The notes under the pieces: generated by a model
The model's database searches: none
What the model was told of the DNA's origin: nothing
What the model saw: the letters and a program-made list of their open reading frames with translations, nothing else
Shown here: positions 6,512-7,096 of the stretch, piece by piece
How positions within the stretch are numbered: position 1 is the first letter of the stretch
How the letters are laid out: each line of letters begins with the position of its first letter
Program-made: the position numbers and the translations under genes
NCBI GenBank assembly: GCA_964016885.1
Contig: OZ024740.1
Location: 61,256,001 to 61,320,000, forward strand
Source of the DNA: Eledone cirrhosa
Taxonomy: Eukaryota
Reading direction: 5' to 3'
DNA length: 64,000 bases

Positions 6512-6518
<7 letters not shown>

Positions 6519-7091
6519 TTAGTGCTCTGAAATAGCTATATATATATATATGAATGTATATATAGTGTATTTTGCAATACACTGTACGCTTAATTAAAAG
6601 CATTTCGAAGACCTTATGCTATTGTTTTAGAGTAGTGACAGTCTCACTTACTTTAATGTTCAGCAAACAGGGGATATAAAGCCGACAGAGCCCTGTTTCG
6701 CATTTATTGATGCTTATCAAGGCTAACTACTACTCCTGTTTGATGAAAATCATGGATGTTTGATTCTTATAGAATTCTAGTAAATAATCAGGAACTGATT
6801 ATACAGAGCGGTTGCCGGTCAAGCAGAAATTGAAAATTAGAATTGGTGCTCTGAAATAGCTATATATATATGAATGTATATATATATAGCTATATATATT
6901 AATCAAACAGGAGGAGTAGTTAGCCTTGATAAGCATCAATAAATGCGAAACAGGGCTCTGTCGGCTTTATCTCCCCTGTTTGCTGAACATTAAAGTAAGT
7001 GAGACTATCACTGCTCTAAAACAATAGCATAAGGTCTTCGAAATGCTTTTAATTAAGCATACAGTGTATTGCAAAATACACTATATATACA

Positions 7092-7096
<5 letters not shown>
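6512..7096. mobile_element. Retrozyme-like element, 324-bp unit plus inverted partial unit
   Basis: ATTAGAATT.GTGCTCTGAAATAGC recurs at 6512 and 6836; about 6900-7096 is the inverse of about 6545-6745; shares blocks with the 310-bp array unit. Confidence 0.8.
6904..6982 (+). ncRNA. Type I hammerhead ribozyme, U3-A8 core variant (mirror copy on minus at about 6664-6742)
   Basis: AGCC-TTGATAA-GCAT-caataa-ATGC-GAAA-CAG-ggct-CTG-TC-GGCT with distal stem CAAACAGG/CCTGTTTG. Confidence 0.75.

What the first reader, a model, noticed from the sequence alone, without database searches (positions are those of the whole stretch)
6512..7096. Sister retrozyme family (324-bp unit) with the same two end points but a rebuilt hammerhead
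Seen: it shares GAGCGGTTGCCGGTC..GCAGAAATT..TGCTCTGAAATAGC.ATATATAT.TGAAT and GAAGACCT with the 310-bp unit. Its hammerhead occupies the same position but differs in sequence in all stems, which still pair. Both insertions start at the same unit position beside (TA)n (6512 and 37175) and both inverted arms stop at ...ATTCA (about 7095 and 41185), about 35-40 nt short of the other end. Inference: the conserved about 75-nt block is a cis-element recognised by the mobilising RT/endonuclease, and the ribozyme fold is under selection.
Basis: partly seen in the sequence, partly recalled or inferred. Interest (0 to 1): 0.75.

Follow-up and report, generated by a model that had tools for sequence, protein, structure and literature searches.

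The report
Sister hammerhead retrozymes with Penelope ends
This is one copy of a protein-free 324-base repeat found at over a thousand places in this animal genome; it and its 310-base sister keep a predicted self-cutting RNA fold through compensating changes and end at the same two fixed points, the known footprint of Penelope-type jumping genes, whose enzyme likely copies them.

Summary
Observation confirmed. 6512-7096 is a two-armed insertion in (TA)n of a 324-bp unit, 64% identical to the 310-bp array at 37175-41185 and 77-87% around the shared ends. Across five subfamilies, 17 of 23 pairs show two-sided changes (0/500 shuffles on cells paired). Ends are fixed: 172 of 188 fall exactly on two sites 35-39 nt apart, and 58 of 63 classifiable two-armed copies pair one of each. 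That is the PLE 'tail', shown in vitro to be two reverse-transcription start sites. So this is a non-LTR retrozyme, likely PLE-mobilised. No autonomous PLE carrying the conserved block was found. However, four copies are joined directly to PLE sequence of two unrelated families, and one is a tandem 159-bp unit without a hammerhead. That favours the block, not the ribozyme, as the mobilisation signal. Cleavage, expression and circles are untested. The scan reported this pattern many times elsewhere in this genome.

The parts
6512..6890 (-). Left arm: 1.16 units of the 324-bp retrozyme; RNA sense on - strand; outer end is the distal 'tail' end
6512..6550 (-). Tail (39 nt here, ~35 in most copies) between the two fixed ends
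6564..6583 (-). 8-bp hairpin with tetraloop just 5' of the short end; two pairs change on both sides between subfamilies
6607..6614 (-). GAAGACCT motif shared by all subfamilies; predicted to pair with the GC-rich block (invariant pairs, so no covariation support)
6660..6744 (-). Type I hammerhead: core UUGAUAA 6720-6714 (U3-A8), stem II 6713-6700, GAAA 6699-6696, self-complementary stem III, predicted cut after GUC at 6684, extended stem I
6789..6860 (-). Most conserved block (GC-rich 15-mer at 6806-6820 plus second tail copy); lies 3' of the distal start site on the RNA; likely protein-binding site
   Evidence: position relative to start sites compared with PMC11167929
6884..6900 (.). Palindromic TA-rich filler at the head-to-head junction of the arms
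6901..7096 (+). Right (inverted) arm, 0.6 unit; second hammerhead core 6926-6932, predicted cut after 6962; ends at the short (no-tail) site
6456..6511 (.). (TA)n target, left
7097..7159 (.). (TA)n target, right
37175..41185 (.). Sister 310-bp family: 6.1 + 6.8 units head to head, tail end left, short end right; C3-G8 core, minimal palindromic stem III
4181..6455 (+). Neighbouring separate insertion: 5'-truncated autonomous PLE ('N1': RT, Cys-rich linker, GIY-YIG-like C terminus) with its own inverted arm and ~60-nt tail; candidate helper family

Best explanation
It is one two-armed copy of a protein-free hammerhead repeat (a non-LTR retrozyme) that is likely copied into TA microsatellites by the reverse transcriptase-endonuclease of a Penelope-like element. 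Shown: unit, copy number, two fixed ends, one-long-one-short pairing, covarying hammerhead. Inferred: multimeric transcripts self-cleave (probably as dimers through the palindromic stem III) and may be ligated to circles. A PLE protein dimer binds the ~160-180-nt structured region (hairpin, tail, GC-rich block), nicks both strands of (TA)n and starts one cDNA at the distal site and the other ~35 nt upstream. The two cDNAs are joined at their truncated inner ends, giving head-to-head arms. The 324 and 310 families descend from one ancestor; the hammerhead drifted step by step under structural constraint (including C3-G8/U3-A8 exchange), while the protein-facing region kept its sequence.
For: Ends: of 188 outer ends in 113 loci, 87 are at the tail site and 85 at the short site, 8 short-like, 4 partial tail, 4 other. 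Of 65 two-armed copies, 58 pair long with short, 3 long/long, 2 short/short, 2 unclassifiable; p=1.7e-12 against 50:50. The autonomous N1 family shows the same rule in 28 of 31 pairs. Either arm can be the longer one, so it is not a simple fold-back copy. PLE tail and inverted copies are described in PMC8557442; two RT start sites, both strands extended and a need for RNA 3' of the sites in PMC11167929. Hammerhead: 28 sequences, 90.9% of cells paired against 75.4% shuffled and 34-42% slid; 17 of 23 pairs with two-sided change; the 3-8 pair is UA in 16 and CG in 12. Common stem III variants self-dimerise (-18 to -24 kcal/mol against -1.8 or 0 as hairpins). Direct joints to PLEs: L249 (retrozyme tail arm + ~4-kb N1 short-end arm), L070, L334 and L323. 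L323 carries four hammerhead-less 159-bp units ending at the tail site.
Against: No PLE with the block was found: 0 of 30 variant-15-mer loci, 0 of 30 tail-variant loci, 0 of 50 GIY-YIG loci (part's output was cut). N1's read-through pseudo-LTR lacks it, and its 3' region is no more similar than shuffles (580/1000 and 452/1000 reach the score). Tails differ: N1 ~60 nt, P3 ~44 nt, retrozyme ~35 nt. Two of the three hybrids with visible ends are long/long, not long/short (L070, L323). L216 shows N1 nested inside a retrozyme arm, so joints can arise otherwise. The best-matching N1 copies are 86-94% identical to the window copy, old for the 99-100% identical 310 arrays. One common stem III variant dimerises poorly (-7.3). 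The covariation alignment is of related sequences and the structure was written from them, which inflates both controls. No cleavage or expression data; in 10.64898/2026.07.22.740005, 8 of 9 tested retrozymes did not cleave.
Confidence: 0.85

Rival explanations
1. Same PLE mobilisation, but the template is a linear multimeric transcript of a donor array, not a circle; the hammerhead only processes RNA or is a passenger.
For: Two of 10 two-armed 310 arrays are mixed: the window array switches between two family variants inside one arm, and L088/L089 alternates at one site. The hammerhead-less L323 array alternates G/C at its junction. HHR mutants still insert in vitro (PMC11167929).
Against: 8 of 10 two-armed 310 arrays have one haplotype in all units of both arms, while at least 10 haplotypes exist between loci; arms of up to ~9 units; the hammerhead is clearly conserved. 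A homogeneous donor array would give the same uniformity, so this does not separate the two models.
Confidence: 0.4
2. The repeats are detached pseudo-LTRs (internal deletions) of one autonomous PLE that is still in the genome and shares the block.
For: Layout matches the PLE 3' end (hammerhead ~170 nt before the end, then tail); 24 of 57 Xenopus retrozyme families match known TEs (21 of the 22 TEs are PLEs). Only 150 of 10,597 GIY-YIG candidates were scored.
Against: No PLE with the block in the loci tested; five subfamilies have evolved as units for a long time.
Confidence: 0.25
3. An ordinary satellite or MITE-like DNA element; palindromes arise by DNA fold-back and the hammerhead is incidental.
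For: Inverted arms and tandem units; Rfam silent.
Against: Arms are unequal with two fixed, different ends; the short-end arm can be much longer than the other (L076); no terminal inverted repeats of equal ends; compensatory changes including the 3-8 tertiary pair.
Confidence: 0.03

Closest known systems
Metazoan non-LTR retrozymes (Cervera and de la Pena 2020, PMC7229834; Li, Clavereau and Pollet 2026, 10.64898/2026.07.22.740005), especially the two axolotl families of 330 and 350 bp
   Same: ~300-bp non-coding low-GC tandem units, one type I hammerhead each; two sister families with different hammerheads (one with a U-U mismatch at the base of stem II, as in the 310 family); proposed PLE mobilisation.
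   Different: U3-A8 core in the 324 family; head-to-head arms with fixed long/short ends ('inverted' does not occur in the main text of PMC7229834); circles and cleavage not shown here; no pseudo-LTR match found, unlike many Xenopus families.
EN+ Penelope-like elements (Poseidon PAc, PMC11167929; Neptune/Naiad layout, PMC8557442)
   Same: 30-40 bp tail at one end, inverted 5'-truncated copy, (TA)n targets, partial tandems, hammerhead near the 3' end, conserved RNA 3' of the start sites.
   Different: No ORF; no sequence match to the N1, P3 or other PLE ends examined.
U3-A8 hammerheads of Schistosoma Cercyon PLEs (PMC4209133)
   Same: Same compensated core pair.
   Different: Here it has a full 4-bp palindromic stem III, and a series of subfamilies links it to C3-G8 forms.

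Membership tests
Non-LTR retrozyme | Short (~150-1000 bp) non-coding unit, dispersed, as monomers to multimers | tested here: met
   324/310 bp, no ORF, 1,031 and 18,541 motif matches
Non-LTR retrozyme | Type I hammerhead in each unit | tested here: met
   (50 of 56 fuzzy matches have UUGAUAA; 4 of the other 6 are truncated at junctions); short hammerhead-less units in 3 loci
Non-LTR retrozyme | At least two consecutive complete hammerheads ('active' criterion of Li et al.) | tested here: inconclusive
   Not met by this copy (one per arm, opposite strands); met by other family members, e.g. L008, L090, and by the 310 arrays
Non-LTR retrozyme | Self-cleavage | not testable with these tools
   Needs transcription assay
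Non-LTR retrozyme | Expression as linear and circular monomer RNA | not testable with these tools
   No RNA holder listed
Non-autonomous PLE derivative | 30-40 bp tail at one end and inverted 5'-truncated copy | tested here: met
Non-autonomous PLE derivative | Insertion bias to microsatellites | tested here: met
   Most outer ends abut (TA)n; not tested against a genomic background
Non-autonomous PLE derivative | Sequence shared with the pseudo-LTR of an autonomous PLE | tested here: inconclusive
   Not met for N1, P3 and the GIY-YIG loci examined; most PLE families unscored
Autonomous PLE | RT plus GIY-YIG ORF | tested here: not met
   No ORF in the unit
Plant LTR retrozyme | Type III hammerhead in LTRs, PBS/PPT, 4-bp TSD | tested here: not met
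   Type I topology, no LTR layout; PBS/PPT not searched

The most novel reading that the evidence does not exclude
PLE integration uses two independently loaded RNA templates, one per DNA strand, each started at a different fixed site, and the recognition signal is a portable ~160-nt RNA structure that needs neither the hammerhead nor sequence identity with the helper. Hybrids with a retrozyme arm and an autonomous PLE arm (L249, L070, L323) and the hammerhead-less 159-bp tandem insertion would be direct genomic records of this, with one retrozyme superfamily riding more than one PLE family.
Probability: 0.35. Interest if true: 0.65.

Novelty: new member of a known kind. Interest (0 to 1): 0.35.

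Why it matters
The class, the U3-A8 core and the tail are all published, so the element itself is ordinary. Its use is as test material. Five subfamilies separate what is kept as shape (hammerhead) from what is kept as sequence (start-site region). The hybrids name two candidate helper proteins. The 159-bp unit gives a minimal template with which the long-proposed retrozyme-PLE link could be tested in the existing in vitro assay.

Tried and rejected
Rfam: no match. DNA search with the 310 unit returned no candidates (common words are skipped), so a pattern was used. Helper search by variant 15-mer, tail variant, GIY-YIG loci and N1 tail read-through: no PLE with the block. N1 and P3 3' ends share no sequence with the retrozyme. 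L216 was first taken for a hybrid and rejected: N1 is nested in a retrozyme arm with a 9-bp duplication. L340, L366, L245 and L282 are separate neighbours; L010 is an insertion into another PLE's ORF; L075 is separated by an assembly gap. The hammerhead-less junction is private to L323 (3 matches), so it founded no family. Pfam gave only a weak RVT_1 hit for N1 and none for the 1,238-aa frame, so its clade is not assigned. No RNA holder listed; contigs of two runs of unrecorded kind say nothing on expression. The arm-difference list printed was out of register and was ignored. In one search, 11 'other' ends were wrong-strand hits of the palindromic hairpin and were removed. My note of '11 of 12' uniform arrays was a miscount; it is 8 of 10. 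No covariance model or R-scape run was made.

Full report
Observation. The element is as described. From (TA)29 it runs 6512-~6890 (one 324-bp unit and 54 nt of a second), then a short palindromic filler, then an inverted 0.6-unit arm 6901-7096 that stops at ATTCA and runs into (TA)n. The 310-bp array (37175-41185) has the same two end positions. The units align over their whole length at 64%; 30-nt windows reach 77-87% over the tail and GC-rich block and 47-57% over the hammerhead. The genome is 3.0 Gb; I did not test its taxon. The shared 15-mer occurs 18,541 times (control 0) and a 324-family 22-mer 1,031 times, so most matches lie in the young 310 arrays and in other subfamilies.

Hammerhead. 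A descriptor scan found type I motifs at 6720 (-) and 6926 (+). The RNA sense is therefore the minus strand of the left arm, and both outer ends are RNA 3' ends. The core is UUGAUAA: C3-G8 is replaced by U3-A8, present in 50 of 56 fuzzy matches. This variant is published for Schistosoma PLEs (PMC4209133), and autonomous PLEs here have it too (L192, L194). The fetched loci hold at least five subfamilies that form a graded series in stem II and the core. On 28 chosen representatives (of 98 distinct segments), 90.9% of cells pair (shuffles 75.4%, 0/500; slid controls 34-42%). 17 of 23 pairs change on both sides (2/500), and the 3-8 pair is UA in 16 and CG in 12 with no mismatch. The number of further pair types did not exceed shuffles (444/500), and relatedness inflates these tests. 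Most stem III variants are self-complementary and pair far better as dimers than as hairpins; one common variant does not. The 106-nt region folds better than all 200 shuffles, although its minimum-energy fold is not the active one.

Ends. I classified outer ends in 113 loci: 26 best matches (three overlapping duplicates left out, the window's copy counted in the next set), 27 from the first pattern hits on contig 1 plus the window, and 60 further 324-family loci in contig order. Of 188 ends, 87 are at the distal site, 85 at the short site, 8 short-like, 4 partial tail and 4 other. Of 65 two-armed copies, 58 pair long with short, 3 long/long, 2 short/short and 2 are unclassifiable (after removing wrong-strand hits seen). 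Either side and either length order occurs. Craig et al. describe a 30-40 bp tail and inverted truncated copies as PLE traits (PMC8557442, passages). Frangieh et al. show in vitro that the tail lies between two RT start sites, that both strands are cut and extended, that RNA 3' of the sites is needed and that the hammerhead is not (PMC11167929, parts 1-2 of 4). The neighbouring autonomous family N1 follows the same rule in 28 of 31 pairs among 91 loci.

The conserved region. From the GGTCTTC motif through an 8-bp hairpin, the tail and the GC-rich block, the length is 181 nt in the 324, 310 and a third subfamily. In nine sequences the hairpin has two pairs with two-sided changes; the block's predicted pairs are nearly invariant and so uninformative. 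L323 holds four tandem 159-bp units made of this region alone, without hammerhead, ending at the distal site in (TA)n. The junction occurs nowhere else.

Helper. No PLE carrying the block was found, though only 150 of 10,597 GIY-YIG candidates were scored. N1 has long open frames (1,238 aa in L247) and read-through pseudo-LTRs whose downstream sequence is unrelated. Direct joints exist. L249 is a retrozyme tail arm joined through duplicated retrozyme fragments to a ~4-kb N1 arm with a short end (1 of 91 N1 loci). L070 and L334 join N1 to retrozyme sequence, and L323 joins family P3 (3 of 113 retrozyme loci). L070 and L323 are long/long, L334's outer end is out of view, and L216 shows that nesting can mimic a joint. 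So PLE proteins are the likely movers, but the cognate family is open, above all for the 99-100% identical 310 arrays.

Template. In 8 of 10 two-armed 310 arrays all units of both arms share one haplotype (apart from single-unit changes), with at least 10 haplotypes between loci. This fits rolling-circle copying but equally a uniform donor transcript. The window's own array switches between two family variants within one arm, which needs two templates or later conversion.

Comparison. Non-LTR retrozymes are an established class with PLEs as proposed helpers (PMC7229834, passages and sections 15 and 17), and axolotl already has two sister families with different hammerheads. A 2026 preprint links them to PLE pseudo-LTRs in vertebrates (10.64898/2026.07.22.740005, parts 1-3 of 5). 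PMC4209133 was read in parts 1-2 of 4; PMC3088659 was seen only as a listing. My searches listed no paper on hybrid retrozyme/PLE insertions or on the strict long/short pairing; they cover open papers only. No supplements were read; those of PMC8557442 and PMC7229834 may hold related families or the helper. Earlier scan notes report the same class, core swap, two-armed pattern and hybrids on other DNA of this genome; I tested these features independently here.

Verdict. Real, correctly described, and a new member of a known kind. Interest 0.35; the hybrids and the hammerhead-less array are the parts worth following.

Noticed in passing
window 4181-6455: 5'-truncated autonomous PLE (N1) with inverted arm and ~60-nt tail, separated from the finding by (TA)29; very large family (36,873 first-look candidates), with frames up to 1,257 aa elsewhere.
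   Followed up: yes
L249 (G000:C4:11812600-11821600): Hybrid insertion: retrozyme arm with tail plus near-full-length N1 arm with short end.
   Followed up: yes
L323 2083-2710 (G000:C1:56076300-56081300): Four tandem 159-bp hammerhead-less units, alternating G/C at the junction, joined head to head to a truncated PLE of another family (P3).
   Followed up: yes
window 37175-41185: Array mixes two family haplotypes: outer four units of the left arm differ at one stem I base from the inner two and from the whole right arm.
   Followed up: partly
window 45450-45950: Palindromic PLE-end-like piece with a second U3-A8 hammerhead (core at 45624 - and 45708 +); related ends occur in other loci (L177).
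   Followed up: no
window 13136 (-), 30746 (-), 43499 (-): Three further hammerhead-like motifs of unrelated sequence beside (TA)n.
   Followed up: no
window 7450-7645: Short GC-rich hairpin element between TA tracts; similar sequence recurs in L221, L246, L255 and L269.
   Followed up: no
window 49730-51452 (-): Second, more decayed PLE related to N1 (about 60% protein identity to N1-family copies), with a similar 3' end.
   Followed up: partly
window 17366-25504 (+) and 28150-30140 (-): Tandem and broken LINE-like RT ORFs (976 and 968 aa frames); not classified.
   Followed up: no
L216 1305-2400: N1 copy nested inside a retrozyme arm with a 9-bp duplication.
   Followed up: yes
L334 558-6059; L339; L320: Long decayed arrays of the 324 family with several internal inversions.
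   Followed up: no
L161 about 1950-2500 (-): Subfamily with the 310-type stem II architecture but a U3-A8 core, suggesting the 3-8 pair changed more than once; no tree was built.
   Followed up: partly
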